Origin: an uncultured Acidobacteriota bacterium
Lineage (GTDB): Bacteria; Acidobacteriota; Terriglobia; UBA7540
Assembly: GCA_963804755.1 (NCBI GenBank)
Contig: CAWDRP010000002.1
Location: 118,179 to 182,178 of the forward strand
DNA length: 64,000 nucleotides
Direction: 5' to 3'
A model generated the notes under the pieces. That model did not search any database, was not told where the DNA came from, and saw only the letters and a list, made by a program, of their open reading frames with translations. Made by a program: the position numbers and the translations under genes. The stretch's first letter is position 1, and every line of letters begins with the position of its first letter. Of the stretch, positions 19,325-45,222 are shown piece after piece.

Positions 19325-22057
19325 CTATGTCAGCACCACTTCCAGCGGATGATCGGGCGTGACCGTAATTTCCCGGTCGAAGCTAATGATGCGGCGCGTG
19401 GGCTCCGTTTTCAGGCTTGCCTGCAACGCGTCCTCCCCCAGGCGCGCCGAAACCTTGTTGAATGGGCCTTTGGTGACGCCGTTCACCGCCAGCCGCGCTA
19501 CGGCGACTCTGCCTTCCGTGACCTGAACTTCCACGCGCTGCTCCTGCGGCTTGAGCGTGTGGGTGAAGCTGCCCCATCCCGACGGCACCGACCAGAAGCA
19601 GCGGAACGCCTGGCGGCGCGTGCGCGGCATCACGGTAAGTTCGCGCTCGGATGCGGAGTAGCGGAAACCGCTCCAGGCAAGGAAGCAGGCCCAACTCGCC
19701 AGGGCGCGCGCGTAGTGGTGGCCGCATTCCTGCTCGTTCCAGGGATTACGCCGCTCCCCGTCATGCCGGGCGCGCGTCGATTCCACAACGTTCAGCGCCT
19801 CCGTCATCAAGCCCTCGAACGCCAGCGACGCCGCAAACTGGTAATCCAAGCCGGTCCAAATCTCACCGAAATAAGGGAACGGAATCTCCGGCCGTTTGCC
19901 CAGGGGATACGTAGCCACCACCACGCCGCCTTCATCATTGAGGGCGTAGGTGCGCTGAAGATCAACATGCTCGCTCAGGTCCGGCCGGTAGTTGTATTTG
20001 TAAACCGACTTCAGCGCGGCGCGCACGTGCGCTTCATCCAACAGATAGCCAAGGCCCGCCACATGCGCCTGCATTTGGCCCAATAACTGGTCCGCCAGGC
20101 ACGCGTCGCCCATTTGATATTCCGGTTTCAGTGTGTCGCCTGCCCCCATCCCTACGCGGGTGCCGGGAGCGATTTGGTCGGCGGGCCGTCCTTCGACTTT
20201 TTGGATGTAGTACTCGCCGTTGAACAGGTTCTGGTCAAACCAGCGGCTGCCTTTTTCGAAAAGCCGCCGATACTCTGCTGCCGATTCCTGATCGCCAACC
20301 TGGCGCGCCATCTCCTCGCCCGCGCGCAAGGCGCCCAGGTAGTAAATCCCACAGAGGGGATTGGGGCCGTAGAACTCCACGTCGTACGTGTTGTGTTGGA
20401 CGCCCTCGGCAACGCCATCACGGTTCGCGTCCCAACCATTTTCGACCCAGGCGAATTCCAGCGCGCGCTTGGCGTTGGGCCACAGCCGGCGCAGCCAATC
20501 CGTATCACCGCACAGCCGCCATTCGCGGTAGAGCTTGATGAGGCAGCCCATCTGGCCGTCGGCTGCGGCCCGCGGCCAAATCTGCTTGCCGTCGGGCAGA
20601 TACGAGCGGAAGCCCATCAGCCCGTTCGCCTCGGTGTTGCGCAGGAATTCCGATTCGCGCAGAGAGTGCGCGAGCGTCGGGAAAAGCTGCGCGGTGGCCT
20701 GCTCGTAATTCCAGACGTGCGTGCAACTGCCGTGGCAGCAGCCCTGGTGATCGTTGCACCCTTCGAAGCCGTGGAACTCGCCATCGGCAGTGCGGAAGCA
20801 CGTGTTCACCCGCAACGTAGAAAGCGTGCTGGTGGCCGCATCGAGCACCGCCGGCGGCAAGGTGGATCGTTCCATCGCTTCCGCAAACGACCGGGTGCGC
20901 GCTTCGAGTTGGGGCAGTTGCTCAGCGGCTTGTCGAGCGGCCTCCCAGGCGTTGGCAAAACGTTCCGTGTAAGCGTTGCCCACAATCGTACTGCTGGGCA
21001 CCGCTTCCGGAGCGGGCCAGCCGCAACGTTCCGGCGTGCGATTGGGGAAATGCCAGGCAAGCAGAAACGTGACCGCCGCCTGGCCGCGCGCGGCAATGGT
21101 CTGCGTCACCGCCAGGGAACTCACGGGCATCGCCGCGGGACCACGGGAGTCCAGCGCGCCATCGTCGCTGAAATCATCCCAGAACGTCAGCACTCCATTC
21201 CACCACCCGGCCTGCTTCCAGCCGCGCAGATAAGAGACGCTGCCCGCAGGGGCTCCCGCCACACACAACGCAAACGAGCCCTTGAAAGGATCGAAAGACG
21301 CGAGAAACGGGTTATCCATGTACAAACCGCTCAGATCCGCCGCCTCCCGAAAAGCCGCTTGCCGGCCCGCTTTACCCACGGGGTTCTCGATGCTCCAGGC
21401 CAGGCCGACCCGGGCGGGAGCATCGTTGGGATTCCGGATCGCATATCGCAGTACTGCAAGGGGCCAGCCCGAGGCGTCAACATCCAGCGGAACGAGCGGG
21501 TTGAAAGCTTCCAGGGCAACCTGCACGGGCACGTGGGGATCACTGAAGGCAAGGCGCGCAACCGGGTATGCGCCCGTAAACGTGGCTTCCGCAAAACGCG
21601 GCAGACCGGGAGCATTGTCGGAACCGAGGCCGCTGGAGTTCCGGTCATACGGCGGTTGGAGGCGCGATTCCAGAACGCGCGTCGCCGGCTTCTGGTCTCC
21701 CACCTTGGCCCAAATCGCCGGGAACGCGTAACTCAACTCGTTTCCCGCGTCCGGCCGGTTGAAGATTTCCCAGTCGCGCAGTTGGCCGCGCCCGCCGAGT
21801 GAAATGGTGCCCGTGCCGATGCCCCCCAACGGAAAGGCGATCATCTTCAGGTTGCGCCCGGTGAACACACGGGGGAACTGCACGCGACTGGGGCCGGTTG
21901 CGGAGGGCGACGGCGCCGATCTCTGATTGCCGGCCGCCTTCGCGGCTTGACCGGCTAAGGCGGGGGCGCCTAAGGTCGCACTGAACGCCCCACCGGCAGC
22001 CACCTCCTTGAGGAAATCACGACGAGCGTAGCGCTTCCGACCCCGTTTTTCGGACAT
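19325..22057 (-). CDS. Glycoside hydrolase family 116-like (GBA2-type beta-glucosidase/glucosylceramidase) with Tat signal
   Basis: The N-terminal domain motif GGIGTGTISLGGRGQLRDWEIFNRP and a large (alpha/alpha)6-type C-terminal domain fit GH116. The start was moved to MSEKRGRKRYARRDFLKEVAAGGAF (Tat motif), which is preceded by AGGAG. Confidence 0.65.
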   Translation of the reverse strand: MSEKRGRKRYARRDFLKEVAAGGAFSATLGAPALAGQAAKAAGNQRSAPSPSATGPSRVQFPRVFTGRNLKMIAFPLGGIGTGTISLGGRGQLRDWEIFNRPDAGNELSYAFPAIWAKVGDQKPATRVLESRLQPPYDRNSSGLGSDNAPGLPRFAEATFTGAYPVARLAFSDPHVPVQVALEAFNPLVPLDVDASGWPLAVLRYAIRNPNDAPARVGLAWSIENPVGKAGRQAAFREAADLSGLYMDNPFLASFDPFKGSFALCVAGAPAGSVSYLRGWKQAGWWNGVLTFWDDFSDDGALDSRGPAAMPVSSLAVTQTIAARGQAAVTFLLAWHFPNRTPERCGWPAPEAVPSSTIVGNAYTERFANAWEAARQAAEQLPQLEARTRSFAEAMERSTLPPAVLDAATSTLSTLRVNTCFRTADGEFHGFEGCNDHQGCCHGSCTHVWNYEQATAQLFPTLAHSLRESEFLRNTEANGLMGFRSYLPDGKQIWPRAAADGQMGCLIKLYREWRLCGDTDWLRRLWPNAKRALEFAWVENGWDANRDGVAEGVQHNTYDVEFYGPNPLCGIYYLGALRAGEEMARQVGDQESAAEYRRLFEKGSRWFDQNLFNGEYYIQKVEGRPADQIAPGTRVGMGAGDTLKPEYQMGDACLADQLLGQMQAHVAGLGYLLDEAHVRAALKSVYKYNYRPDLSEHVDLQRTYALNDEGGVVVATYPLGKRPEIPFPYFGEIWTGLDYQFAASLAFEGLMTEALNVVESTRARHDGERRNPWNEQECGHHYARALASWACFLAWSGFRYSASERELTVMPRTRRQAFRCFWSVPSGWGSFTHTLKPQEQRVEVQVTEGRVAVARLAVNGVTKGPFNKVSARLGEDALQASLKTEPTRRIISFDREITVTPDHPLEVVLT

Positions 22058-22178
22058 TTTATCTCCTGCAATCAAAACAAGAAAAAAGCGGCCCTTTGTT
22101 TTCATCAACATCGCCGGATGCACCTTCATTTTTTGTAGCAAAGCCGGAAGGCAAGCCTGCAACCTCAGCAGAGAAAAT

Positions 22179-22206
22179 CTGGCACCTGACACCTGGCACC
22201 TGACAC
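22179..22206. promoter_or_regulatory. 14-bp tandem direct repeat CTGGCACCTGACAC x2 in the divergent GH116 / TonB-dependent-receptor intergenic region
   Basis: A perfect tandem duplication read directly in the sequence. Candidate operator for a shared regulator. Confidence 0.3.
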
Positions 22207-22486
22207 CTGTTCTTCCCTCCTCGCAATTCGGCGACACACCAGCCGCCGGTTGCCGAACCACAGAGTTCTAGCCTATATTCTTGGGAGAGGTCAAGCAAAA
22301 TCGTTGGAACATCAAATTCAAACTGAGCCACTACCAAAAATCATCGCGCGCGTGCATCGGCGCCCACGTTCCGATACAATAAGTTTTCGGGGTGCTGCCC
22401 GAGCGTATTCGGGTTCAGATTCAAATCCTGCTTCAGCAACCCTGTCCACGTACGGGCTCAATCATGGGTGGACCGGGCATGGGGTG

Positions 22487-31198: not shown

Positions 31199-32803
31199 TT
31201 AGCTGCTCACCTGGTGCGCGGCGCCAGCTTCTTTCTTCTCGACATGTTCTTCCACCTGGGGTGGCGCCGGTTTCAGCGACGCCGGCAACTGGGCTTCCAG
31301 GCCGAGCTGTGCCAGGACCGAAGGCACGTCCAGCCCCAACGCCTGGAGCTGCTGGAGCAAGCTGAACACCAGCGCCGGCCCCGTTTGCGCGATCCGCCCA
31401 ATACCGCCGGTGCCGTTGGCTGCGCCGTTGCCCTGCTCAATTACCACCACCTTATCAATATTGCCGAGCGGCGCCGCGACAGCCCCGAACACGCCCGCCG
31501 ACGCTTGCAGGACGCTGGGTAATTTCTCGAGCAGCGTTTGCAGTTTCGCCGCGTCGTTGAATTGGCGCCACGCCTCCGCCTTTTTCAGGATCGCCTGGGC
31601 TTCTGCCACGCCTTGCGCTTCGATGGCGCGCGCCTGCGCCAACCCCATGGCCTCGATCTTCGCCGCTTCGGCGCGGCCCTCTGCCTCCACCGCTGCCGCG
31701 CGGCCCAGTCCTTCCTGCGTCAGCTTTGTCTGCTGCGCTTCGGCCAGGGCGATTTGCGCGGCCTTTTGGCCTTCCGCCTCCAGGATGGCCGCCTGCTTTT
31801 TCGCCTCCGCGCGCACAATAGCGGCTTGCCGCTCCGCCTCCGCCGCTTTGATCACCGTGGCTTCCAGTTCCTTCTGTTTGCGCAGGACCTCCTGCTCCTG
31901 CACGGCGATCTGTTCCTGTGTGCGGGTCTTCTCCACGCGCACTTCTTCCGCCACCACCGCCTGCTTCGCTTTCGCCTCCGCCAGGGGTCCGGCCTGTGCG
32001 GACTTGGCCTTTTCCATTTCAATTTCGGCCTGGTATTGGGCCTGCCTCACCTGGAATTCACGATTCGCGCTGGAAATGTTGGCGTCCGCGTCGAACTTCG
32101 CCTTTTCCCCTTCCTGCATCGCCAGGGCGGATTTGATCTTCGCGTCGCGCGTGGCCTCTGCTTCACCAATCGTGCCGTCGCGTTTGACTTCCGCCGTGCG
32201 CTTCTTGCCCAGTGCGTCCAGGTAGCCTTCCTCGTCGCTGATGTCCTGAATCGTCAGCACGTCCACGCCAATGCCCATGCGTTCCAGGTCGAGGGTGGCT
32301 TCGGAGGTCAGCTTCTGGGCAAAACTGGCGCGATCACTGTTGACCTCTTCCACAGTCAGAGTGCCGAGAATGGATCGCAAGTGGCCTTCCAGCGTCTGGA
32401 AAATGACCTTCTGGATGGTATCGTGCGTCATGCCCAGAAAGCGTTCGGCGGCCGCCGCGAGCGACATATCATCGCCCTTGATCTTCACGTTGGCCACGGC
32501 CTTCACGGAAATGGGCACGCCCTTCAGGGTATAGGCGCGCTTGATTTCCAGGGGAATGGTAATAACGTTGAGAGACAGGTAATCCACCTGCTCCAGCAGC
32601 GGCCAGCGGAAGGCCGCGCCGCCCCGCACCATCCGGTAGCCCACGATACGGCCGTCGGGCAGCTTGTGTTTGCGCCCGCTGAAAATCGCCACGGCGTTGG
32701 GCGGCACTTTGATGTAGTTCTTGGCAAAACGGGAAATCGCCAGCAGCAGCGCAATGGCGGCAATCGCCGCCAGGACGATAACAAAGGGCGGAAATGATAG
32801 CAT
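31199..32803 (-). CDS. Flotillin-like SPFH/band-7 protein (FloT/YqiK type)
   Basis: N-terminal TM, SPFH domain, then a long Ala/Glu-rich coiled coil (AEAERQAAIVRAEAKKQAAILEAEGQKAAQIALAEAQ). Confidence 0.85.
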   Translation of the reverse strand: MLSFPPFVIVLAAIAAIALLLAISRFAKNYIKVPPNAVAIFSGRKHKLPDGRIVGYRMVRGGAAFRWPLLEQVDYLSLNVITIPLEIKRAYTLKGVPISVKAVANVKIKGDDMSLAAAAERFLGMTHDTIQKVIFQTLEGHLRSILGTLTVEEVNSDRASFAQKLTSEATLDLERMGIGVDVLTIQDISDEEGYLDALGKKRTAEVKRDGTIGEAEATRDAKIKSALAMQEGEKAKFDADANISSANREFQVRQAQYQAEIEMEKAKSAQAGPLAEAKAKQAVVAEEVRVEKTRTQEQIAVQEQEVLRKQKELEATVIKAAEAERQAAIVRAEAKKQAAILEAEGQKAAQIALAEAQQTKLTQEGLGRAAAVEAEGRAEAAKIEAMGLAQARAIEAQGVAEAQAILKKAEAWRQFNDAAKLQTLLEKLPSVLQASAGVFGAVAAPLGNIDKVVVIEQGNGAANGTGGIGRIAQTGPALVFSLLQQLQALGLDVPSVLAQLGLEAQLPASLKPAPPQVEEHVEKKEAGAAHQVSS

Positions 32804-32816
32804 GGTTCACCTCCCG

Positions 32817-33026
32817 GAGTTCGAAACTCGAAACTGGAAACTCGAAACTGGAAACTCGAAAATCGAAATTCGAAAATCGCACCAAGATCTAGGCCTAACG
32901 CTCGAAGTTCGGAAATCGGATTTGCCTGATTTCAGGCTCAACCCTTAACCTAATCTCGTTGCGAACTGCCAGCTTCGAGTTTCGATCTTCGAATTTCGAC
33001 TTTCCAGTTTCGAGTTTCGACCTTCG
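32817..33026. repeat. Heptamer-array hairpin: about 9 tandem NNCGAAA/CTGGAAA heptamers facing about 8 inverted copies across an ~85-nt loop, between the nfeD stop and the flotillin ribosome-binding site
   Basis: Read directly from the sequence: TTCGAAACTCGAAACTGGAAACTCGAAACTGGAAACTCGAAAATCGAAATTCGAAAATCG ... CTTCGAGTTTCGATCTTCGAATTTCGACTTTCCAGTTTCGAGTTTCGACCTTCG. The 3' arm on the mRNA strand ends CUCCGGGAGGUGAACCAUG, so it abuts the flotillin ribosome-binding site. Confidence 0.6.
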
Positions 33027-33593
33027 TCATTTCTCTGTGGCCGCGGCCTTTTGCTCCGCGCGATCTACCAGGACGACCTCTCCGACGATCGTGCTGATTC
33101 TTACCAGCGTGTTGACGGGAATCTCTTCGTTGGTTGCAGCGCGGGCCACCTTTTCCACCACCGTATCACCCAGCGTGCAGCGCACCTGGCCCATTCCACC
33201 CGGCGGAATCGCGACACTCACCTGGGCCATATTGCCCACCAGGTCGCCCGTCCGGACGTGGCTGGACGCTTGTTGGCTGTACAGGAAACTGGCGAAAACG
33301 TAGATTATGCCCGCGAACAGCACTCCGCCGCCGAAGCCCATGGCCGTGCTCGCACCCACCCCAAATCCGATGTGAATTCCAATGGCGCCAAAACTTCCAA
33401 ACGCGGTGACGAAGACGCTCAAAATGCGGCTGCTCAGCAGGCTGGGACCGGCGCCATGACCGTCGGCGTCGTGGCTGAAATCTCCATGTTCGAACAGGTC
33501 GCCCAGGACAGAACTGCCGAGCAGAAAAACAAAACCAAACACCGCGATGGCAACGAAGGTGACAAATGCCGATGTGCTTGCGAGCAGGATCAT
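33027..33593 (-). CDS. NfeD-family membrane protein (partner of flotillin)
   Basis: Three to four TM helices, then a C-terminal OB-like segment (VRCTLGDTVVEKVARAATNEEIPVNTLVRISTIVGEVVLVD). Directly upstream of the flotillin gene. Confidence 0.7.
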   Translation of the reverse strand: MILLASTSAFVTFVAIAVFGFVFLLGSSVLGDLFEHGDFSHDADGHGAGPSLLSSRILSVFVTAFGSFGAIGIHIGFGVGASTAMGFGGGVLFAGIIYVFASFLYSQQASSHVRTGDLVGNMAQVSVAIPPGGMGQVRCTLGDTVVEKVARAATNEEIPVNTLVRISTIVGEVVLVDRAEQKAAATEK

Positions 33594-33825
33594 GTCAATG
33601 GCCTCTGAATCAGGAGAATCCGTTGCACCTCGCGCAAAGGAATGGGGCAAACTACGCCAGCGAGGGCTACTCTAAGGCCGCGGCGCAGCGAAGTCAAGGC
33701 GGGTTCGCGGCAGGCCGTGTTGACATGCTAAAGACAGGCGGGTTCGCACCGGGGTGTGCAATACGAAATTAGAAATAGGATATCGCTTGATCAGATGGCC
33801 CCGAAGGGGCTAGCCATGAGAGGGC

Positions 33826-33999
33826 TTAAGGAGCAGGATACATAATCCAGCCGAGCACCAGCGCCACGACGACAAACGTTACAAACACGCGGGCGCCGTA
33901 TAAAATCCGGCCGCGCGGGTCATCCTTGCTCAGCAGGCCGAACCCCACCGAGACAAGGAAGGCGAACAAACACATTGCGGGAAAGTGTTGGAGAGGCAT
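33826..33999 (-). CDS. Small two-TM membrane protein (57 aa)
   Basis: MPLQHFPAMCLFAFLVSVGFGLL...VFVTFVVVALVLGWIM. The start lies 9 nt downstream of the CAGTGAA heptamer hairpin. Confidence 0.3.
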   Translation of the reverse strand: MPLQHFPAMCLFAFLVSVGFGLLSKDDPRGRILYGARVFVTFVVVALVLGWIMYPAP

Positions 34000-34007
34000 T
34001 TTAGAAA

Positions 34008-34137
34008 CCAGTGAACAGTGGACAGTGAACAGTGAACAGGAAAAACCAGTCCACTTTCTATCTTCCACTGTTCATCAAAACCACTGAACAGCGGACACGC
34101 AAAGTCTGTTCACAGTCCACTGTTCACTGTCCACTGT
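34008..34137. repeat. Heptamer-array hairpin (CAGTGAA/CAGTGGA x4 facing TTCACTG/TCCACTG copies, ~70-nt loop) between the stop of the 138-aa membrane protein gene and the start of the small membrane protein gene
   Basis: CCAGTGAACAGTGGACAGTGAACAGTGAACAGG ... CTGTTCACAGTCCACTGTTCACTGTCCACTGTC. Confidence 0.55.
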
Positions 34138-34140
34138 CTT

Positions 34141-34557
34141 TCAGGGCTTTCGCCCATTCGCGATGTCGTACGCGTCGAGAATCGAGAGCGTGTTCAGCAT
34201 GCCGGCGGCCACGAGGAAGGCCGTGCCGAAATCGGCGCTCACAAACAGCGGATTGCCCCCGCCATAGCCGAAGAACCGGGCCGCGGGCATGGCAATGCCC
34301 ACGCACAACTCGCCGAAATAACCCAGCGTTTGAAGATAGGCTCCCGAACCGGTAGTGAAAAACTCGCCTTGCATGCCAAGGCCCAGCAGGAACGTTGATA
34401 CAATCGCTGCGAAAAGGATCAGCGCGCGCCACTTGCGGCCCAGCAGCAAATGGCCCAGGCCCGGCACCAGCCACGCTGCCACGCACAAACGCACCAGCGC
34501 GGCCGTTTTGGGCGGTGCGGGACGGGAAACGGTTTCATGAGCAGTTTTGTTGGCCAT
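34141..34557 (-). CDS. Hypothetical 4-TM membrane protein
   Basis: Hydrophobic segments throughout. I recognise no family. Confidence 0.4.
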   Translation of the reverse strand: MANKTAHETVSRPAPPKTAALVRLCVAAWLVPGLGHLLLGRKWRALILFAAIVSTFLLGLGMQGEFFTTGSGAYLQTLGYFGELCVGIAMPAARFFGYGGGNPLFVSADFGTAFLVAAGMLNTLSILDAYDIANGRKP

Positions 34558-35785: not shown

Positions 35786-35906
35786 GCGGTTCCTCCCGTA
35801 AGATTAGACAGTAGGCAGAAAGCAGTAGGCGGAAAGCAGTATGTGGTCCCATGGTTGCGCGGGTTGGACCGCGTCGTATACTCTCGAACGGTACGACCGC
35901 CGAGCG

Positions 35907-36332
35907 TCACGGCTTGCGGCCGGCAAGCTGGTATACCACGAGGTTTAAGCCAGGAATATCCTCGAAATCGTGACGATTTCGCGTCAGTAGGCAGCAGGCG
36001 TATTGCAGAGCCTGACTTGCCAGCCAGAGGTCCTGGACGCGGTAACGATGCTGCCGACCAGCCGCCTTGATTTGGGCAGCGAGACTGCCGAAAATTCCTC
36101 CTGTGGTGCCATCGATCGTTAGAAGAGGTCTACGCTCCAGGCGACGCAGCGCAGCAAGTCGCTTCTGGCGAATCCCAGGATCGGGCGCAATCTCCGCACC
36201 AAATCGCATCTCGGCGACGGTCACCGGCGAGATAAACACCGGCTCGCCGCGAGTGAGCACCTCAACTTCGGCCGCAGAGAGTACTCCACGCTCTATGTCT
36301 ATCAGTACGCACGTGTCGATCAAGAAGCCCAT
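35907..36332 (-). CDS. vapC: PIN-domain toxin VapC (second pair)
   Basis: MGFLIDTCVLIDIERG...LTRNRHDFEDIPGL. Confidence 0.75.
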   Translation of the reverse strand: MGFLIDTCVLIDIERGVLSAAEVEVLTRGEPVFISPVTVAEMRFGAEIAPDPGIRQKRLAALRRLERRPLLTIDGTTGGIFGSLAAQIKAAGRQHRYRVQDLWLASQALQYACCLLTRNRHDFEDIPGLNLVVYQLAGRKP

Positions 36333-37957: not shown

Positions 37958-39238
37958 CTACTCACCTGCTTCCGGTTCACCGGGCCTCAGAGCCTTATCG
38001 TAAATAAACATCAGCACGGCGCCCATCAGACCCACACCTGTCACCACCCACCACATCTGCCGCGGGCGGTGCAGGACGTCGCCGAATTCATGGAGAAGAT
38101 ATCCGCCCAAAGGGCCGGCAATGAGATACCCAATCGCAATGGGAAGGAACGCGTAACCCATGTAGAGCCCTTGCTGGCCGGAAGGCGCCAGGCGCGAAAT
38201 GTATTCGTAGTACCGCGCCGATTGGGTCATTTCGCCAAGCGCCAACACGATCAGTGCGGCCACCAAGCCGGGCGTAGAGGGAAAGAAAACCAAAATCAAC
38301 CACGCCAGGCTGGAGATCACCAGCCCCAGGGTCATCGCCGGGAACGTAGGGATCTTCCGCGTCACATAGCTGACCAGAATCTGGAAGCAGATCACCGCCA
38401 GGGCGTCAACGGAAAGCACCAGGTCGGCATTCGCATTGGGGTCGACGTAGCCGCGCAAGAACAGCGGCGCAGAGATGAACTCCTGCCAGAACACAATATA
38501 GAAACTCGAAAATATCAGCAGGAACAGAACGAACCGGAAATTGGCCAGCACCACAACCATATTCTTCAGGGCGTGCGCAACACTCGCTACCTTCTGTTCC
38601 TCAGATTTCGCGGGCTCGCGGAAAAACACCAGCGTAACGAGAAACATCAAGAACACACTCACGGCGGAGACGCGAAAAACGTTTTCGATGCCCCAGCCCA
38701 GTCGTTTGCGCACCAGCCACGCCACGAGGGGACCCAGCGTGCCGCCAATGTTCACGATCGTGTAATAAATGGAATAACCAATCGAGCGAACGTTCTCCGT
38801 GGAAGCGCGCGCCGTGGTGCCCGCCACGCACGGCTTCACCACCGCCGGCCCCAGCGCCGGAACCATCAGAATGGCGAACACCAGCCACTTGTCGCCCATG
38901 GCTTGGCGCGTGGCCTGCATCCACGTCGCGGAAAGAGAACCCAGCAGGAAATAGCCCACCGTCATCACCAGGTACGCAAACATCAGGGCACGGCGAAAAC
39001 CAAAACGGTCGGCCAGCGTTCCGCCCAGCACCGGCAAGAGCCACACAACGAAGCCGAAGGTCCCCATCATCCAGCCGGCAAGTTCTTTTGAAAAGTGCAG
39101 TTGCTCGGTGAGGTAAATGGCCAGAACGGCGCTGGCGGCATAGTAAGCCAGGCGCTCAAAAAGCTCGGTAGTATTCGCCACCCAGAAAGCCCGCTCGAAG
39201 CCAGTGCGAATTTCAGCCAGCCGGTCGGTGAAGCTCAA
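37958..39238 (-). CDS. MFS transporter of the proton-dependent oligopeptide (POT/PTR2)-like type
   Basis: ELFERLAYYAASAVLAIYL (ExxERFxYY signature), 12 TM. TTG start with a GAGGAG ribosome-binding site. Confidence 0.65.
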   Translation of the reverse strand: MSFTDRLAEIRTGFERAFWVANTTELFERLAYYAASAVLAIYLTEQLHFSKELAGWMMGTFGFVVWLLPVLGGTLADRFGFRRALMFAYLVMTVGYFLLGSLSATWMQATRQAMGDKWLVFAILMVPALGPAVVKPCVAGTTARASTENVRSIGYSIYYTIVNIGGTLGPLVAWLVRKRLGWGIENVFRVSAVSVFLMFLVTLVFFREPAKSEEQKVASVAHALKNMVVVLANFRFVLFLLIFSSFYIVFWQEFISAPLFLRGYVDPNANADLVLSVDALAVICFQILVSYVTRKIPTFPAMTLGLVISSLAWLILVFFPSTPGLVAALIVLALGEMTQSARYYEYISRLAPSGQQGLYMGYAFLPIAIGYLIAGPLGGYLLHEFGDVLHRPRQMWWVVTGVGLMGAVLMFIYDKALRPGEPEAGE

Positions 39239-39260
39239 AAGTTTATCTCCTCAGAATCAG

Positions 39261-39482
39261 TCGCGAGTGACAAGTGACGAGTGACAAGCAGGCAAAACGC
39301 GCACCTCGGATGAAGTCGGTCGTCACCAGGCAATCGGCAATCAACAATCGGCAATCTCGTCATTCGCCACTTGTCACTGGATGCGAAAAACGAACTCCAA
39401 AAGTCGAAGCGCGATTTTCGATTTTCGATTTTCGAGTTTCGGTCCTAGTGACTCGTCACTTGTCACTTGTCACTCGTCACTA
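39261..39482. repeat. Heptamer-array hairpin: GTGACAA/GTGACGA x4 facing the inverted array across a ~155-nt loop that itself carries CAATCGG x3 and CGATTTT x3 tandem heptamers. Sits between the yggU stop and the POT transporter ribosome-binding site.
   Basis: TCGCGAGTGACAAGTGACGAGTGACAAGCAG ... TAGTGACTCGTCACTTGTCACTTGTCACTCGTCACTA. The right arm encodes the last 6 codons of yggU (VVTSDK*). The left arm ends 4 nt before the GAGGAG ribosome-binding site of the transporter. Confidence 0.6.
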
Positions 39483-39768
39483 CCTTTCCGATCCGCTCAA
39501 TGCTTTCCTCCGCCGAGCGTCCCGCGATGCGCAGCAATTTGCGCCGCGACTTCTGGCCGGAAACGATCACGACGCACGCTTGGGGCAGGCGCAACTCGCG
39601 GGCAAAAAAACGGACGCACGCGTCATTGGCCTGGCCTTCCGTCGCGGGGGCGTGCAGTTCCAGGCGCAGTTCGCCGGATGCGTCCACGGTCAACCGCTCG
39701 CGCGCGGCACGGGGCTTCACCCGGAGCCAAAAGGTTACGTTCTGGCCTTCTACTTTGAAGTTGGCCAT
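39463..39768 (-). CDS. yggU: YggU/DUF167 family protein
   Basis: MANFKVEGQNVTFWLRVKPRAARERLTVDASGELRLELHAPATEGQANDACVRFFARELRL is the DUF167 core. The ORF-track start at 39813 is a likely upstream extension. Confidence 0.7.
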   Translation of the reverse strand: MANFKVEGQNVTFWLRVKPRAARERLTVDASGELRLELHAPATEGQANDACVRFFARELRLPQACVVIVSGQKSRRKLLRIAGRSAEESIERIGKVVTSDK

Positions 39769-39815
39769 TGAGTTGGCGTTGGGTTTTCCCATTTTCGAAT
39801 TTCGCTGTTCCATGC

Positions 39816-40148: not shown

Positions 40149-40568
40149 CTAGGTCCAGGGATTCAAGAGGGCCTTCAATATCGGATGAAAGTGTGCAGTG
40201 TTGCGGGTTACAAGGGTTAATTGGTAAACTTGGGCAGTGGCCGCGAGCAAGGCATCCATGGCTTCGACTGGCCGCCCCGCCGCCTCGCTCTTTGCCACCA
40301 ACTTGCCGCAGGCGTCGGCGATAGCCGCATCAATGCTCAGAACCCTCCCTTCGAATCGCGTCGGCAGATCATTCTCCAGCCATGCTCTCAACTGTTTTTG
40401 ACGCCGGCCCGTGGCGATGCGCTCGACGCCATGCCGCAGTTCTGCGAGAGTCACCACGCTGAGAAACACCTGGTCTTCGTCTGTACCGGCCAGCCACGCC
40501 ACGACGCCCGGATTAGGCCGTGGCTTCACCCATTCGGAGACGACGTTGGTATCGACCAGAAAACTCAC
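40149..40568 (-). CDS. vapC: PIN-domain toxin VapC (third pair, FitB-like)
   Basis: MSFLVDTNVVSEWVKPRPNPGVVAWL...LVTRNTAHFHPI. Confidence 0.8.
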   Translation of the reverse strand: MSFLVDTNVVSEWVKPRPNPGVVAWLAGTDEDQVFLSVVTLAELRHGVERIATGRRQKQLRAWLENDLPTRFEGRVLSIDAAIADACGKLVAKSEAAGRPVEAMDALLAATAQVYQLTLVTRNTAHFHPILKALLNPWT

Positions 40569-40819
40569 AGTTCCGCCTTGCGAACGCCACCGCGCAGGCG
40601 TTCAATCTTCAGTCCCGACCGCCTCAGGGGCGACGACGCAAAGAACTCCACCAGGTTCCCCTGGCGCCGGGTCTTGCGCTCCCATTGGTCAGCAGCAACT
40701 ACCACGGCAGCCTTGCGTCCGTTGCGCGTAATGGTTTGCGGCCCCAGGGATCGCGCCTTTTCGATAACTTCGCTGAATTTCGCCTTGGCTTGGGCGACTG
40801 TCCATGCATCCACTCCCAC
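40565..40819 (-). CDS. vapB: VapB/Phd-type antitoxin (third pair)
   Basis: 84 aa. 4-nt overlap with vapC. Confidence 0.65.
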   Translation of the reverse strand: MGVDAWTVAQAKAKFSEVIEKARSLGPQTITRNGRKAAVVVAADQWERKTRRQGNLVEFFASSPLRRSGLKIERLRGGVRKAEL

Positions 40820-42470: not shown

Positions 42471-43184
<714 letters not shown>

Positions 43185-43275
43185 CGGGTTCGGGCGTGGC
43201 CGGGGCTACGCGAAGATATTTTGCATCTCGGGACAACAAAGACGTGTCATTCTATCACTCCCTTGCTCTATACGC

Positions 43276-43304
43276 TTGACAAAACCAACTAAATAGGCTA
43301 TAGT
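43276..43304 (+). promoter_or_regulatory. Consensus sigma-70-type promoter TTGACA-N17-TATAGT with no protein gene downstream
   Basis: cTTGACAaaaccaactaaataggcTATAGTatt. It diverges from yggS. No credible ORF follows for 1.2 kb. Confidence 0.45.
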
Positions 43305-44003
43305 ATTGGTCGATGGTTGCGGCTCGGCGTCTCGAAACCGGCGCTTCGGTACGGCCGGCGCCAGGGAAATCAGATCCGGGCATGGCTAGTCAAAAGGCGA
43401 ACATCGCGCAATACGCCCGGAGACACAATGTCCTCAGCACGTGCATCCTCCCGAACCTGAGAAGTTATTGAAAACACAAGGCCTGAAAACAGGTTTTTCA
43501 CCTCTCGAACCTGAGAACATAGTGAAAACACAACCAGTTAAGTCAAATATGAAAAAGTGAAAACGGCATGACACAATGTCCAGCCGGGCTAGCCGATAGC
43601 CTCCAGGCAGTCACCGCCTGGCACGAGCCCCCCGCCTCCATGCAGCCCGATCTTTGCTTCTCTTCGATCGTCTGGCCGTCCTTCTCTCCCGGTCCTCCAA
43701 CATCTTTGGCGGGACCCTGGGTTTTTGGCCAGGGCTTCGTCAAGGTCGCTTTTAGTGAGATCACAATGCATGCCTCCTTTTATCTCTTGGGAACTAATCC
43801 ATCAGATAACGGCATAAAAATTGCTAGCCGTACCGGATGGAGGTGTATCTTCTGCTCGGAATGGCGCAGCCCGGTAGGCTCGCGAGGCTCCTGGCCGCCC
43901 CTGACGCGCTCGGCCGCGGCTCCGCCACGTGCCTTTCCCCATGGCCTCAGCAAAAAACTCGCATCCCGCCGGCCCGCGGGGCGGCCCGCCGGGGGCCGTG
44001 GAA

Positions 44004-44082
44004 GCTCGAAATTCGAAACTGGAAACTGGAAACTGGACACGGCCTTGAGTTTCGAGTTTCCAGTTTCAAGTTTCGCTTTTTC
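44004..44082 (+). terminator. Heptamer-array hairpin (CGAAATT/CGAAACT/GGAAACT x5 facing an inverted array across an 8-nt loop) followed by a T5 run: intrinsic-terminator-like
   Basis: GGAAGCTCGAAATTCGAAACTGGAAACTGGAAACTGGA cacggcct TGAGTTTCGAGTTTCCAGTTTCAAGTTTCGC TTTTTCC. Confidence 0.4.
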
Positions 44083-44194
44083 CTAACCCTAACGCCACGG
44101 TCAGGGAAGGTGGACGGAAGAAAAAAAATTTACGAACGAAGCCACCAAGTTATTGAAAACAAAGGATCGCAGAACAAATTGACCGAAAAAAAGC

Positions 44195-44271
44195 GGACAT
44201 TTTGGTTTAAGTATCGGACATTTTGGTTCAACGTGGTGACATTTTGGCGTGGCCATGCAGCATTTTTCGGA
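44195..44271. repeat. Three perfect plus one degenerate GGACATTTTGG / GTGACATTTTGG direct repeats phased at exactly 21 bp, ~280 nt upstream of tmk
   Basis: Copies start at 44196, 44217 and 44238 (GACATTTTGG), with a GCATTTTTCGG degenerate copy at ~44260. Phasing at two helical turns suggests iteron-like or cooperative binding sites. Confidence 0.45.
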
Positions 44272-44547
44272 CACTTCGGCATGACGTGGTGACGTCTTGG
44301 ATGCCAACACCGAACGGGACCGGAAGAGGAGGACGGGCCATTTCCGACTTACCGATGTTTAGCGCTCCCACCGTCTGAACCGCCGCGACTTTGACGTGAC
44401 CCTGGGTTTTTGGCAGCCAGGCTTGTTTACCATGATCGGCGAGTGCTAGGATTCCAAATCTGGGATGACGAAACGCGAGGTTCTCACGAGCCTCGAACTT
44501 GGAGTCTCCATCCCTCCGCTTAACGCGAATCAGCGGTCCGAACCAAC

Positions 44548-45222
44548 ATGAATTCAGGCCTGTTCATCACCTTTGAAGGACTGGACGGCACGGGCAAGAG
44601 CACGCAATTGCGCCGCGCCGTTCAATACCTGCGCAAGTGCGGCCACACCGTGGTCGTGACGCGAGAACCGGGCGGAACGCGCACCGGAGAGCGCGTGCGC
44701 GACATCCTGCTGGCATCGAAAACGGAAAAGCTCGCGCCCCTGGCGGAACTGGCGTTGATGTACGCGGCGCGCGCCCAACTTCTGGATGAGGTGGTGCGCC
44801 CGGCGCTGGCCCGCGGCGACGTGGTGGTGAGCGATCGCTATAACACTGCGTCGTTCGCGTATCAGGGTTACGGGCGCGAACTGGGTACAGCCACCGTGCG
44901 CGCGTTTGACCGTGTGATTTGCGGCAACACCCAGCCCGACCTGACCATCGTCCTCGACCTCGATCCCGAGCGCGCGTTGGGGCGTGCGCTGGGACGCGAC
45001 GTCCGGCGGCGATCCCGCCATGGACGGTTCGAGGCGCAGGGCTTGGCATTTCATAAGCGTGTACGGGCGGGGTATCTGGCCATCGCTCGTGGCGCGCCGC
45101 AGCAGGTAAAGCTGGTGGCTACCGGCCAGCCGATTGGCCAGGTTCAGCATGAAATCCGCAACCTCATTGATGCACTCCTGATGCGCCGGGGCAGGAAGCG
45201 GCAGCCAAGCCACAAAGCTTGA
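44548..45222 (+). CDS. tmk: Thymidylate kinase
   Basis: FITFEGLDGTGKSTQ (P-loop) plus the DRY motif. Confidence 0.9.
   Translation: MNSGLFITFEGLDGTGKSTQLRRAVQYLRKCGHTVVVTREPGGTRTGERVRDILLASKTEKLAPLAELALMYAARAQLLDEVVRPALARGDVVVSDRYNTASFAYQGYGRELGTATVRAFDRVICGNTQPDLTIVLDLDPERALGRALGRDVRRRSRHGRFEAQGLAFHKRVRAGYLAIARGAPQQVKLVATGQPIGQVQHEIRNLIDALLMRRGRKRQPSHKA

What the first reader, a model, noticed from the sequence alone, without database searches (positions are those of the whole stretch)
32817..33026. Large hairpins built from tandem 7-nt repeats placed between a stop codon and the next ribosome-binding site inside operons
Four loci carry inverted arrays of tandem heptamers forming 30-55-nt arms. 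They are GAAACTN-type at 32817-33026 and 44004-44076, GTGACAA-type at 39261-39482, and CAGTGAA-type at 34008-34137. In three cases the structure starts within 0-3 nt of an upstream stop codon (nfeD, yggU, the 138-aa membrane protein). It ends 4-9 nt before the ribosome-binding site or start of the next gene on the same strand (flotillin, POT transporter, small membrane protein). For flotillin, the 3' arm runs into CUCCGGGAGGUGAACCAUG. The heptamer periodicity allows many alternative pairing registers, a slippery and tunable stem. Position and architecture suggest a cis-acting element controlling translation initiation or segmental mRNA stability of the downstream membrane-protein cistron. I know of no described element class built from 7-mers like this. 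The six-frame ORFs running through them (heptad peptides such as FEFRSSNFDFPVSSFDL) are artefacts.
Basis: partly seen in the sequence, partly recalled or inferred. Interest (0 to 1): 0.7.

Follow-up and report, generated by a model that had tools for sequence, protein, structure and literature searches.

The report
Heptamer-repeat hairpins between acidobacterial genes
The 7-base repeat hairpins are real, but they belong to a known and still unexplained kind of bacterial repeat (tandem heptamer arrays, often in inverted pairs), here found in soil Acidobacteria, and they look like generic, dispensable spacer-fillers behind stop codons, not dedicated switches for the downstream genes.

Summary
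All four loci carry tandem heptamer arrays. Period 7 is the only repeat period from 4 to 12 with strong arrays in the window, and the inverted arrays fold far better than shuffles (z -5 to -7.5). Three sit in same-strand gene junctions, flush with the upstream stop codon. The fourth lies in a 1.5-kb gene-poor stretch.

The organism is an uncultured Terriglobia (Acidobacteriota). In 2.2 Mb of related DNA I found 496 heptamer arrays. 83% are intergenic. They come from many unit families and often form inverted pairs.

Evidence against a dedicated regulator:
- The arrays are missing from many orthologous junctions in relatives.
- They change by 7, 14 or 21 nt.
- They carry no RNA-strand signature (G·U 66 vs A·C 81).
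- They leave the Shine-Dalgarno site unpaired.
- They are not specific to any gene class.

Evidence for positional constraint:
- Hairpin-type elements favour same-strand junctions (28/621 vs 4/323 junction types, p=0.007).
- They hug stop codons (59% within 15 nt).
- One junction keeps a heptamer hairpin in nearly every genome, although the unit sequence differs.

Equivalent arrays are already described in cyanobacteria (STRR), Xanthomonas (GGGAATC, with inverted pairs) and Beggiatoaceae (TAACTGA). My verdict is a new member of a known kind. The most likely action is a generic, REP-like intercistronic stem-loop.

The parts
32815..33026 (-). Inverted GAAACTN heptamer arrays between the NfeD-like gene and flotillin. 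The 5' arm on the mRNA is 33026-32981, the unique spacer is 32980-32882, and the 3' arm is 32881-32815. The stem base touches the stop TGA (33029-33027) and the SD GGGAGGTG.
   Evidence: the spacer has no other copy in 2.2 Mb
34007..34139 (-). Inverted CAGTGAA/CAGTGGA heptamer arrays (arms 34139-34106 and 34045-34007) around an inner hairpin. The element lies between the DUF6677 stop (34143-34141) and the ATG (33999) of a conserved 57-aa membrane protein.
39259..39483 (-). Nested composite element. The outer GTGACNA arms are 39483-39445 and 39289-39259. Inside lie AAAATCG units (39441-39409), an extra GTGAC-type copy (39379-39356) and ATTGCCG units (39356-39329). The 5' arm encodes the last six codons and the stop of YggU. 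The 3' arm ends a few nt before GAGGAG and the TTG start of the MFS/POT gene.
44001..44080 (.). Tight GAAACTG hairpin (32-nt arms, 8-nt loop). It is not in an operon junction but in a 1468-nt gene-poor stretch between a PLP-enzyme gene (42471-43079, -) and tmk (44548-45222, +).
22177..22210 (.). Unpaired CTGGCAC/CTGACAC array (4.4 units) in the divergent spacer between a GH116 gene and a TonB-dependent receptor gene.
35809..35841 (-). Unpaired array of alternating CAGTAGG/CAGAAAG units, immediately upstream of the SD and ATG (35785) of the M24 peptidase gene.
31199..32803 (-). Flotillin (Band_7/SPFH plus Flot domains), the cistron downstream of element 1.
33027..33650 (-). NfeD-like membrane protein, so named by position and layout only because it matches no family. 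It is the cistron upstream of element 1. The likely start is 33593.
33826..33999 (-). Conserved 57-aa two-TM protein, the cistron downstream of element 2. It has no obvious SD.
34141..34557 (-). DUF6677 protein, the cistron upstream of element 2.
37958..39238 (-). MFS/POT-type transporter, the cistron downstream of element 3. It has a TTG start.
39463..39813 (-). YggU/DUF167 protein, the cistron upstream of element 3. Its C-terminal tail and stop are supplied by the array.

Best explanation
These are local members of a lineage-wide population of heptanucleotide simple-sequence arrays, like cyanobacterial STRRs and the Xanthomonas GGGAATC repeats, in uncultured Terriglobia (Acidobacteriota).

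Shown here:
- The arrays are strictly 7-periodic, come in many unrelated unit families, and are overwhelmingly intergenic.
- They grow and shrink in whole units (7, 14 and 21 nt).
- They differ greatly in load between related genomes.
- About half have a complementary partner array nearby, giving 30-75-bp imperfect palindromes.
- The hairpin-type elements accumulate in same-strand gene junctions right behind the upstream stop codon. Some of these junctions were originally overlapping (TTGA) or under 40 nt long.

Inferred:
- The arrays arise by replication slippage.
- The two arms are kept alike at the DNA level, for example by template switching within quasi-palindromes. RNA-level selection is not the likely cause, because mismatches are strand-symmetric.
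- The elements are co-transcribed with the operon and fold into a long stem-loop whose base brings the upstream stop codon next to the downstream SD. This is why they are tolerated in tightly coupled junctions.
- Their effect on expression is generic and REP-like. A stem within 15 nt of a stop codon hinders the terminating ribosome on the upstream cistron. A long stem is also a barrier to 3' exonucleases and a plausible RNase III substrate, so the two cistrons become uncoupled in translation and stability.

They are not dedicated riboregulators of the downstream membrane-protein genes.
For: - Period specificity: 200 period-7 arrays against 0-28 for periods 5, 6 and 8-11 in 1.36 Mb; 296 against 0-35 in a further 0.83 Mb.
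- Intergenic location: 83% of 496 arrays, in DNA that is about 18% non-coding.
- Many unit families.
- Whole-unit indels between 96-99.4% identical contigs: 7 nt (L051/L083), 14 nt (L018/L116), 21 and 7 nt (L037/L038), 7 nt (L133/L141).
- Dispensability: the nfeD-like|flotillin spacer is 163 nt with arrays (30/97) and 39 nt without. The yggU|POT spacer is 139 nt with arrays (29/66) and -4 nt without, a TTGA stop/start overlap.
- No gene specificity: 16 of 25 well-sampled junction types carry arrays somewhere, and the chance is independent of baseline spacer length.
- No RNA-strand signature: G·U 66 vs A·C 81, p=0.25; the sense fold is more stable in 41 cases and the antisense fold in 39. DNA and RNA folds are equally significant.
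- The SD lies outside the stem.
- Stop-proximal geometry: median 11.5-16 nt from the stop against 46-62 nt from the start; 47/80 hairpins lie within 15 nt of the stop and 26/80 fill the spacer from stop to RBS.
- Hairpins favour same-strand junctions: 28/621 vs 4/323, p=0.007.
- Genome-level propensity: array load is over-dispersed (chi2/df 4.6; 19 loci with no array against 2.1 expected).
- Precedent: in Xanthomonas, 70 of 186 GGGAATC sites are inverted pairs, 89-93% are intergenic, they lie on average 28 nt from the upstream ORF, mostly between same-strand ORFs, and they vary between species (PMC4692102).
- REPs within 15 nt of a stop stall ribosomes (PMC12306157, citing Liang et al.).
Against: - No transcript data exist, so co-transcription, folding in vivo and any effect on expression are all inferred.
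- One junction (DUF6677|57-aa ORF) keeps a heptamer hairpin in almost every genome sampled while the unit family changes. That looks more like maintained function than drift.
- The bias of hairpins toward same-strand junctions could reflect selection for an RNA role, not mere tolerance.
- The sample covers two syntenic neighbourhoods, not whole genomes.
- Gene calls come from my own simple caller.
- Repeat copy numbers in short-read MAG assemblies may be wrong. One contig (L081) ends inside an array.
- Why the unit is 7 nt is unexplained.
Confidence: 0.55

Rival explanations
1. One reading: a dedicated cis-acting RNA hairpin whose slippery, length-tunable stem controls translation initiation or segmental stability of the downstream (membrane-protein) cistron.
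For: - The elements run from the stop to the RBS in three operon junctions.
- Hairpin-type elements are enriched in same-strand junctions.
- A heptamer hairpin persists at the DUF6677|57-aa ORF junction across lineages, and the sequence just 3' of it, before the ATG, is conserved.
- 7-nt indels do alter stem length.
Against: - The SD is not paired within the heptamer stem.
- Orthologous junctions lack the element in many relatives, some of them close.
- Array-free nfeD-like|flotillin spacers are no more structured than controls (median z -1.06 vs -0.25, p=0.24).
- There is no G·U excess on the sense strand.
- Downstream genes are of all kinds, including tmk-adjacent genes, peptidases and glycosidases.
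- The fourth locus is not in an operon.
Confidence: 0.15
2. The arrays are multimeric binding sites for a lineage-specific protein that measures 7 nt per subunit, for example a cold-shock-domain, S1-like or other single-strand binder, or a DNA-binding factor. The hairpin potential would then be secondary.
For: - The period is strictly 7 across unrelated unit sequences.
- Array load is a genome-level trait, as expected if a trans factor is present or absent.
- Some unpaired families are oriented with the sense strand (AACTGAC 7:0, AAGGCAG 7:0).
- In some lineages NACTGAN arrays run right up to an ATG that lacks an SD (L122, L133, L141, L145). This matches the TAACTGA repeats, for which S1, Csp or CsrA binding was proposed (PMC4679880).
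Against: - The unit sequences are too diverse for one sequence-specific binder.
- Most families show no orientation bias.
- About half of the arrays are self-complementary pairs, which would compete with single-strand binding.
- No candidate protein was identified.
Confidence: 0.15
3. The elements are transcription terminators or attenuators separating transcription units.
For: - They are long stable stems just after stop codons.
- The fourth locus is followed by CTTTTT.
Against: - None of the arrays is picked up by the terminator scan, and terminator-like sites are not enriched (18 found vs 16.6 expected).
- The stems are A/U-rich, and the three operonic elements have no U-tract.
- Arrays are depleted in convergent spacers, where terminators are expected (6/172 vs 58/621 junction types, p=0.011).
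- They interrupt junctions that are translationally coupled in relatives.
Confidence: 0.07
4. The elements are mobile: MITEs, or REP-like units moved by a RAYT or IS200-type transposase.
For: - They have an inverted-repeat architecture.
- Presence and absence at orthologous sites is patchy.
Against: - The spacers between arms are unique. They have no second copy in 2.2 Mb, even at orthologous sites.
- Arms are variable tandem arrays, not fixed terminal repeats.
- No target-site duplication is evident.
- Changes between close relatives are whole-unit indels within arrays, not gain or loss of whole elements.
Confidence: 0.03

Closest known systems
GGGAATC heptamer repeats of Xanthomonas and GGGGA(C/T)T repeats of Nostoc (Rehm et al. 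2015, PMC4692102)
   Same: - Both are tandem heptamers with degenerate positions.
- Both are about 90% intergenic.
- Many occur as nearby inverted pairs able to form stem-loops (70 of 186 sites in X. campestris).
- Both lie close to the end of the upstream ORF, mostly between same-strand ORFs.
- Both are found at the same junctions in related species but vary in length and sequence.
- No gene-class specificity has been found and the function is unknown.
- GGGAAYA/TTAGGGA arrays also occur in relatives of this window (L028, L029, L041).
   Different: - The units in this window are not G-rich, so they have no G-quadruplex potential.
- Many unit families coexist here.
- Divergent spacers are not depleted here (8.6% vs 9.3% of junction types), whereas convergent ones are.
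- The phylum is different.
- Nested composites of two families occur here.
STRR (short tandemly repeated repetitive) heptanucleotides of heterocystous cyanobacteria (Mazel et al. 1990, as cited in PMC4692102; details from my own knowledge)
   Same: Both show several unrelated heptamer families per genome, tandem arrays in non-coding DNA including operon spacers, and high copy number. The function of both is unexplained.
   Different: STRRs are cyanobacterial and are usually described as direct arrays, not stop-to-SD palindromes. The original paper could not be read here.
TAACTGA direct repeats of Beggiatoaceae, Cyanobacteria and Bacteroidetes (MacGregor 2015, PMC4679880)
   Same: Both are heptamer arrays in intergenic DNA. 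In some relatives of this window, NACTGAN arrays run in sense orientation right up to a start codon that lacks an SD, exactly the TAACTGA geometry.
   Different: TAACTGA sets are short (2-6 units), almost never inverted (1 of 170), and lie near the start codon. The elements in this window are inverted pairs that lie near the stop codon.
REP/BIME elements of enterobacteria
   Same: This is a resemblance in likely action. Both are abundant extragenic palindromes in operon spacers, and many lie within 15 nt of a stop codon, where REPs stall terminating ribosomes and lower upstream expression (PMC12306157). REPs are also known as mRNA 3'-end stabilisers (my own knowledge).
   Different: A REP is a fixed 20-40-nt palindrome consensus spread by RAYT transposases. 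The elements here are variable tandem heptamers of many families, with no consensus and no sign of transposition.
Intercistronic RNase III processing hairpins (e.g. phage T7 early mRNA; my own knowledge)
   Same: Both are long, imperfect double-stranded stems placed between cistrons of one transcript.
   Different: No cleavage data exist here, and the sequence is not conserved. This is an analogy only.

Membership tests
Heptameric simple-sequence arrays (STRR-type) | Tandem head-to-tail units of exactly 7 nt, in excess over other unit sizes | tested here: met
   Window: 6 strong arrays at period 7 and 0 at periods 4-12 other than 7. Related loci: 200 vs 0-28 and 296 vs 0-35.
Heptameric simple-sequence arrays (STRR-type) | Several unrelated unit families in one genome or lineage | tested here: met
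   The window holds GAAACTN, GTGACNA, CAGTGRA, GGCAATC, CTGRCAC and CAGWAGG units. More than 40 canonical units occur in relatives.
Heptameric simple-sequence arrays (STRR-type) | Strong preference for non-coding DNA | tested here: met
   411 of 496 arrays are intergenic, in DNA that is about 18% non-coding. Several of the 'coding' cases are spurious ORFs or gene tails.
Heptameric simple-sequence arrays (STRR-type) | Copy number changes by whole units (slippage) | tested here: met
   7-, 14- and 21-nt indels occur in arrays between 96-99.4% identical contigs. Assembly error cannot be fully excluded.
Xanthomonas-type inverted heptamer repeats | Two arrays of complementary units close together, able to form a stem-loop | tested here: met
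   111 pairs among 496 arrays. Folds have z -5 to -7.5.
Xanthomonas-type inverted heptamer repeats | Closer to the upstream ORF end than to the next start, mostly between same-strand ORFs | tested here: met
   Median 11.5-16 nt from the stop vs 46-62 nt from the start. Paired elements: 28/621 same-strand vs 4/323 other junction types.
Xanthomonas-type inverted heptamer repeats | G-tract units with G-quadruplex potential | tested here: not met
   The units in the window have no GGG tracts. Only some relatives carry GGGAAYA-type arrays.
TAACTGA-type start-proximal direct repeats | Sense-oriented direct repeats ending within a few nt of a start codon, usually without an SD | tested here: not met
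   The window elements are inverted pairs next to stop codons, and an SD is present at two of three downstream genes. The feature is met only in remoter relatives (L122, L133, L141, L145).
REP/BIME | Conserved 20-40-nt imperfect palindrome consensus repeated genome-wide | tested here: not met
   Only the heptamer arrays match between elements. No shared palindrome consensus exists and the spacers are unique.
REP/BIME | Associated RAYT (Y1) transposase | not tested
   Only 20 of about 53 window proteins were scanned against Pfam. None of them is a Y1 transposase. No whole genome is available.
REP/BIME | Extragenic stem-loop close to the upstream stop codon inside operons | tested here: met
   Distances of 0, 1 and -20 nt in the window; 47/80 hairpins lie within 15 nt of the stop in the sample.
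Intrinsic terminator | G+C-rich stem followed by a U-tract | tested here: not met
   No array is reported by the terminator scan. The stems are A/U-rich. Only locus 4 is followed by a short T run.
MITE | Multiple copies with a conserved internal sequence, fixed terminal inverted repeats and target-site duplications | tested here: not met
   Internal sequences have no second copy in 2.2 Mb.
Any Rfam family | Match at or above the family's gathering score | tested here: not met
   0 matches in the whole window. Only sub-threshold hits of 20-28 bits were found, to eukaryotic miRNA-precursor models and to sau-19.
Phase-variable contingency locus | An SSR within a reading frame or promoter spacing, so that unit changes switch a gene on and off, and hypervariable within populations | tested here: inconclusive
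   The arrays lie in spacers or gene tails, and unit changes do not shift the flanking frames. Contigs at least 99.6% identical showed no array indels, and changes appear at about 0.6-4% divergence. No population-level data were available.

The most novel reading that the evidence does not exclude
Heptamer palindromes are a selected, lineage-wide class of intercistronic devices in Terriglobia. A stem clamped between a stop codon and the next ribosome-binding site sets the expression ratio of neighbouring cistrons, by stalling termination, by RNase III processing, or by enabling re-initiation across the stem base. Slippage in 7-nt steps gives heritable fine-tuning. The strict 7-nt unit reflects a trans-acting factor, a polymerase or repair peculiarity or a 7-nt-footprint binding protein, that array-rich genomes have and array-free relatives lack. 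The near-universal heptamer hairpin in front of the conserved 57-aa membrane-protein gene would be the clearest selected case.
Probability: 0.15. Interest if true: 0.7.

Novelty: new member of a known kind. Interest (0 to 1): 0.38.

Why it matters
Why bacteria from several phyla accumulate tandem repeats of exactly seven bases has been an open question since 1990, and no function or generating mechanism is established. This window shows the phenomenon is also abundant in soil and peat Acidobacteriota, at about one array per 3 kb in this clade. I found no paper describing it there.

The comparative material is unusually informative:
- The same junctions occur with and without arrays.
- Formerly overlapping gene pairs are split by a hairpin.
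- Gene tails and stop codons are encoded by repeats.
- Two unit families form nested composites.
- One junction keeps the hairpin while the unit sequence turns over.

There are practical consequences too. These arrays break short-read assemblies, create spurious ORFs with heptad peptides, and can mislead start and stop annotation.

Tried and rejected
1. Exact-protein lookup of the flotillin to identify the source contig: not on record.
2. Rfam at gathering and at permissive thresholds: nothing meaningful.
3. Terminator and promoter scans: the arrays are not terminator-like, and no promoter-like site lies inside the three operonic spacers.
4. MITE or mobile-element reading: the spacers are unique.
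5. RNA-level selection test (G·U vs A·C on the sense strand, and sense vs antisense folding energy): no asymmetry.
6. 'The junction needs a hairpin of any kind': array-free nfeD-like|flotillin spacers are not more structured than control spacers. The DUF6677 junction looked structured only because degenerate heptamer arrays had escaped my detector.
7. 'Units supply stop codons in all three frames as a translational insulator': true for GTGACNA and CAGTGAA, but not general. The stop-bearing arm comes first in 20 pairs and second in 17, and 60 of 106 pairs have no stop codon at all.
8. Orientation bias of unpaired arrays: absent for most families.
9. Simple phylogenetic signal of array load: Mantel test not significant, although the window's own clade is the richest.
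10. Primary papers Mrazek 2007 and Mazel 1990 are not held in the library, so they are cited second-hand through PMC4692102.
11. The idea that the arrays grew from a mini-palindrome (TCGAAnnTTCGA) seen in short outgroup spacers is only an impression. It was not tested.
Full report
**What is in the sequence.** The four loci are as described.
- Tandem Repeats Finder reports period-7 arrays at every one of them.
- A uniform lag-identity scan over periods 4-12 finds strong arrays only at period 7: 6 arrays, 302 bp, and none at any other period.
- The arrays come as inverted pairs with arms of 30-74 nt at 78-87% complementarity. Several registers offset by 7 nt pair about equally well.
- Folded as RNA on the transcribed (-) strand, the three operonic elements give -111, -79 and -110 kcal/mol, with z-scores of -7.3, -7.2 and -5.35 against dinucleotide shuffles.
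- The fourth element gives -41 and -38 kcal/mol on the two strands, with z -5.6 and -5.1.
- DNA parameters give the same picture for locus 1 (z -7.55).
- Two further unpaired arrays lie at 22177-22210 and 35809-35841.

**Gene context.** All relevant genes are on the - strand.
- Pfam and NCBIfam identify flotillin (31199-32803), a DUF6677 protein (34141-34557), an M24 peptidase, an MFS/POT-type transporter (37958-39238) and YggU/DUF167 (39463-39813).
- The gene upstream of flotillin matches no family. It has a membrane-plus-soluble-tail layout, so 'NfeD-like' rests on position and layout only.
- The 57-aa ORF after the second element is a real gene. 48 distinct orthologues encode a conserved two-TM protein.
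- Element 1 starts 0 nt after the upstream TGA, and its 3' arm ends at the SD GGGAGGUG.
- Element 2 starts 1-2 nt after the DUF6677 stop and ends 10 nt before the ATG.
- In element 3 the array encodes the last six codons (VVTSDK) and the TGA of YggU.
- In the predicted fold of element 1 the SD is not part of the heptamer stem.
- The fourth element is not in an operon. It lies in a 1468-nt stretch without convincing genes.

**Where the window comes from, and how common the arrays are.** Flotillin relatives place the window in uncultured Terriglobia (Acidobacteriota) from peat and soil. The best match is 92-93% amino-acid identity. I fetched 80 genomic loci around flotillin and 80 metagenomic loci around the transporter. 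With the window this makes 2.2 Mb.
- Period-7 arrays number 200 and 296 in the two sets, against 0-35 for every other period tested.
- There are dozens of unit families.
- 83% of the 496 arrays are intergenic, although only about 18% of the DNA is non-coding.
- 111 inverted pairs were detected.
- Density is highest in the window's own clade, at 0.32 per kb.
- Density is strongly over-dispersed between loci. 19 loci have none, where 2.1 are expected.
- One 97%-identical contig is only 1366 bp long and ends inside the array, so the arrays break assemblies.

**Orthologous junctions.**
- nfeD-like|flotillin: arrays are detected in 30 of 97 genomes. The spacer is 163 nt with them and 39 nt without. 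Remoter Acidobacteriota have 0-31-nt spacers. Some close relatives carry a different G+C-rich sequence, or nothing.
- yggU|transporter: array-free genomes have the yggU stop overlapping the TTG start (TTGA; median spacer -4). Array-bearing genomes (29 of 66) read into the array, stop on a TGA inside it, and resume with SD and TTG after the hairpin.
- At that junction the outer GTGACNA layer, the inner GAAAWTC layer, both nested, or neither can be present.
- The elements are therefore insertions or expansions into formerly tight, translationally coupled junctions, and they are dispensable.
- DUF6677|57-aa ORF behaves differently. Nearly every genome has a heptamer hairpin there, built from different unit families (GTGACNA, CAGTGRA, GATTGAG, AATGATG). 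The few bases just before the ATG are conserved.

**Dynamics.** Between contigs that are 96-99.4% identical, the indels of 5 nt or more in or next to arrays are 7, 14, 21, 7 and 7 nt, plus one of 8 nt. Pairs at or above 99.6% identity show none. The arrays change by whole units, but they are not hypervariable in the way contingency loci are. The spacers between the arms are unique sequences with no other copy in 2.2 Mb. This argues against a mobile element.

**Positional statistics.** These use my own gene calls, with orthologous junctions collapsed to one type each.
- Any array: 58/621 same-strand, 13/151 divergent and 6/172 convergent junction types. Only convergent spacers are depleted (p=0.011).
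- Hairpin-type pairs: 28/621 same-strand against 4/323 others (odds ratio 3.8, p=0.007).
- Within same-strand spacers the arrays sit next to the upstream stop. The median is 11.5-16 nt from the stop and 46-62 nt from the next start, and 66 of 223 overlap or abut the stop.
- 47 of 80 hairpins lie within 15 nt of the stop, and 26 of 80 fill the spacer from stop to RBS, as in this window.
- The chance that a junction carries arrays does not depend on its baseline length. 16 of 25 junction types sampled in at least 5 genomes carry arrays somewhere. There is no gene-class specificity.

**RNA or DNA?** I took 80 unique hairpins in same-strand junctions and aligned the arms by Watson-Crick identity only.
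- Transition mismatches give G·U on the sense strand 66 times and A·C 81 times (p=0.25).
- Sense folds are more stable than antisense folds in 41 cases and less stable in 39.
- Transversion-type mismatches (155) are as frequent as transition mismatches. This is expected if unit variants such as TCG and TGG are shuffled between arms.
- So there is no sign that pairing is maintained specifically in the transcript. The palindromes behave as strand-symmetric DNA features.
- Array-free nfeD-like|flotillin spacers are not unusually structured.
- Stop-codon-bearing arms do not preferentially come first (20 vs 17).

**Most likely explanation.** The elements are heptameric simple-sequence arrays of the STRR kind.
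- Slippage generates and resizes them. The whole-unit changes are shown; the mechanism is inferred.
- The two arms are kept similar at the DNA level. Template switching within quasi-palindromes is an established mechanism that would do this, but that step is inferred.
- They are retained mainly just behind stop codons in same-strand junctions.
- There the transcript would fold into a stem whose base puts the upstream stop next to the downstream SD. That explains why formerly overlapping gene pairs tolerate a 140-220-nt insertion.
- The expected consequence is generic and REP-like. Stems within 15 nt of a stop codon stall terminating ribosomes in E. coli (PMC12306157). Long stems also block 3' exonucleases and are natural RNase III substrates (established knowledge).
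- If anything is regulated, the upstream cistron and the coupling between the two are affected at least as much as the downstream gene.
- Nothing about transcription or effect is shown here.

**Comparison with what is known.**
- Heptamer repeats are over-represented among bacterial SSRs, and a link to polymerase slippage has been proposed (Mrazek 2007, as reported in PMC4692102).
- Xanthomonas GGGAATC repeats match this case closely. There are 186 sites, 70 of them inverted pairs, 89-93% intergenic, on average 28 nt from the upstream ORF, mostly between same-strand ORFs, variable between species, and of unknown function.
- Cyanobacterial STRRs and the TAACTGA repeats of Beggiatoaceae, Cyanobacteria and Bacteroidetes are further members.
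- A Nostoc study reports modest effects of heptamer repeats on reporter expression (bioRxiv 10.1101/2022.06.06.494920).
- I found no paper linking heptamer repeats with Acidobacteria.
- The differences here are non-G-rich units, many coexisting families, nested two-family composites, gene tails and stops encoded by the arrays, and depletion in convergent spacers where Xanthomonas shows depletion in divergent ones.

**Verdict.** The feature is real and striking, but it is a new member of a known, unexplained kind.

**Caveats.**
- The sample covers two syntenic neighbourhoods.
- Gene calls come from my own simple caller.
- The contigs are MAG and metagenome assemblies.
- No expression data were available.

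Noticed in passing
window 43080-44547: A 1468-nt stretch without convincing genes lies between a PLP-enzyme (Ala_racemase_N) gene and tmk. The orthologous spacer in relatives is about 200-270 nt, so roughly 1.2 kb is extra here. It holds a near-consensus sigma-70-like promoter (TTGACA-17-TATAGT, 43276-43304, + strand) and three direct-repeat families: GGACATTTTGG-type at 44193-44300, CCTC.CGAACCTGAGAA..T.GTGAAAACACAA at 43447, 43501 and 44132, and CTTTGRCG.GACCCTGGGTTTTTGGC at 43704 and 44389.
   Followed up: partly
L096, L097, L101, L111, L108, L134, L140 (upstream of the transporter match): In array-free relatives the yggU stop overlaps the transporter's TTG start (..GGGAGGAAACGTTGAGC, TTGA), a classic coupled junction. 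The heptamer element in the window and in many relatives has split this overlap and replaced the YggU C-terminal tail.
   Followed up: yes
L122, L133, L141, L145 (just upstream of the transporter start): In remoter lineages, sense-oriented NACTGAN heptamer arrays run right up to the ATG with no recognisable Shine-Dalgarno sequence. This is the same geometry as the TAACTGA repeats described in Beggiatoaceae.
   Followed up: partly
L063:4262-4404 (Chloracidobacterium sp. UBA7656) and L062:5351-5382: The same nfeD-like|flotillin junction in a distant class carries a 15-unit GTCAGAA array followed by CGACTCT-type arrays, while lineages of intermediate flotillin identity have 9-26-nt spacers. This suggests independent colonisation of the same junction.
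   Followed up: no
L081 (1366-bp contig, 97% identical transporter): The contig consists of little more than the transporter gene, and its 5' end lies inside the heptamer array. These arrays evidently fragment short-read assemblies.
   Followed up: no
window 35907-36332 and 40149-40819: There are two PIN-domain genes. The second (40149-40568) overlaps a small upstream gene (40565-40819) by 4 nt, the usual layout of a VapBC-type toxin-antitoxin pair.
   Followed up: no
L054, L044, L033, L042, L049 (nfeD-like|flotillin spacers of 23-26 nt): The short outgroup spacers contain a mini-palindrome (for example TAACTCGAAGTTCGACGGGGAG) built from the same TCGAA/TTCGA core as the GAAACTC/GAGTTTC arrays. 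It could be the seed from which the arrays expanded, but this is an impression only.
   Followed up: no
L028:2954-2988 and 20725-20761; L029:1032-1058; L041:2055-2078 and 20640-20664: G-rich heptamer arrays (TTAGGGA, GGGAATA/GGGAACA) resemble the quadruplex-forming GGGAATC repeats of Xanthomonas. They occur in relatives alongside the non-G-rich families.
   Followed up: no
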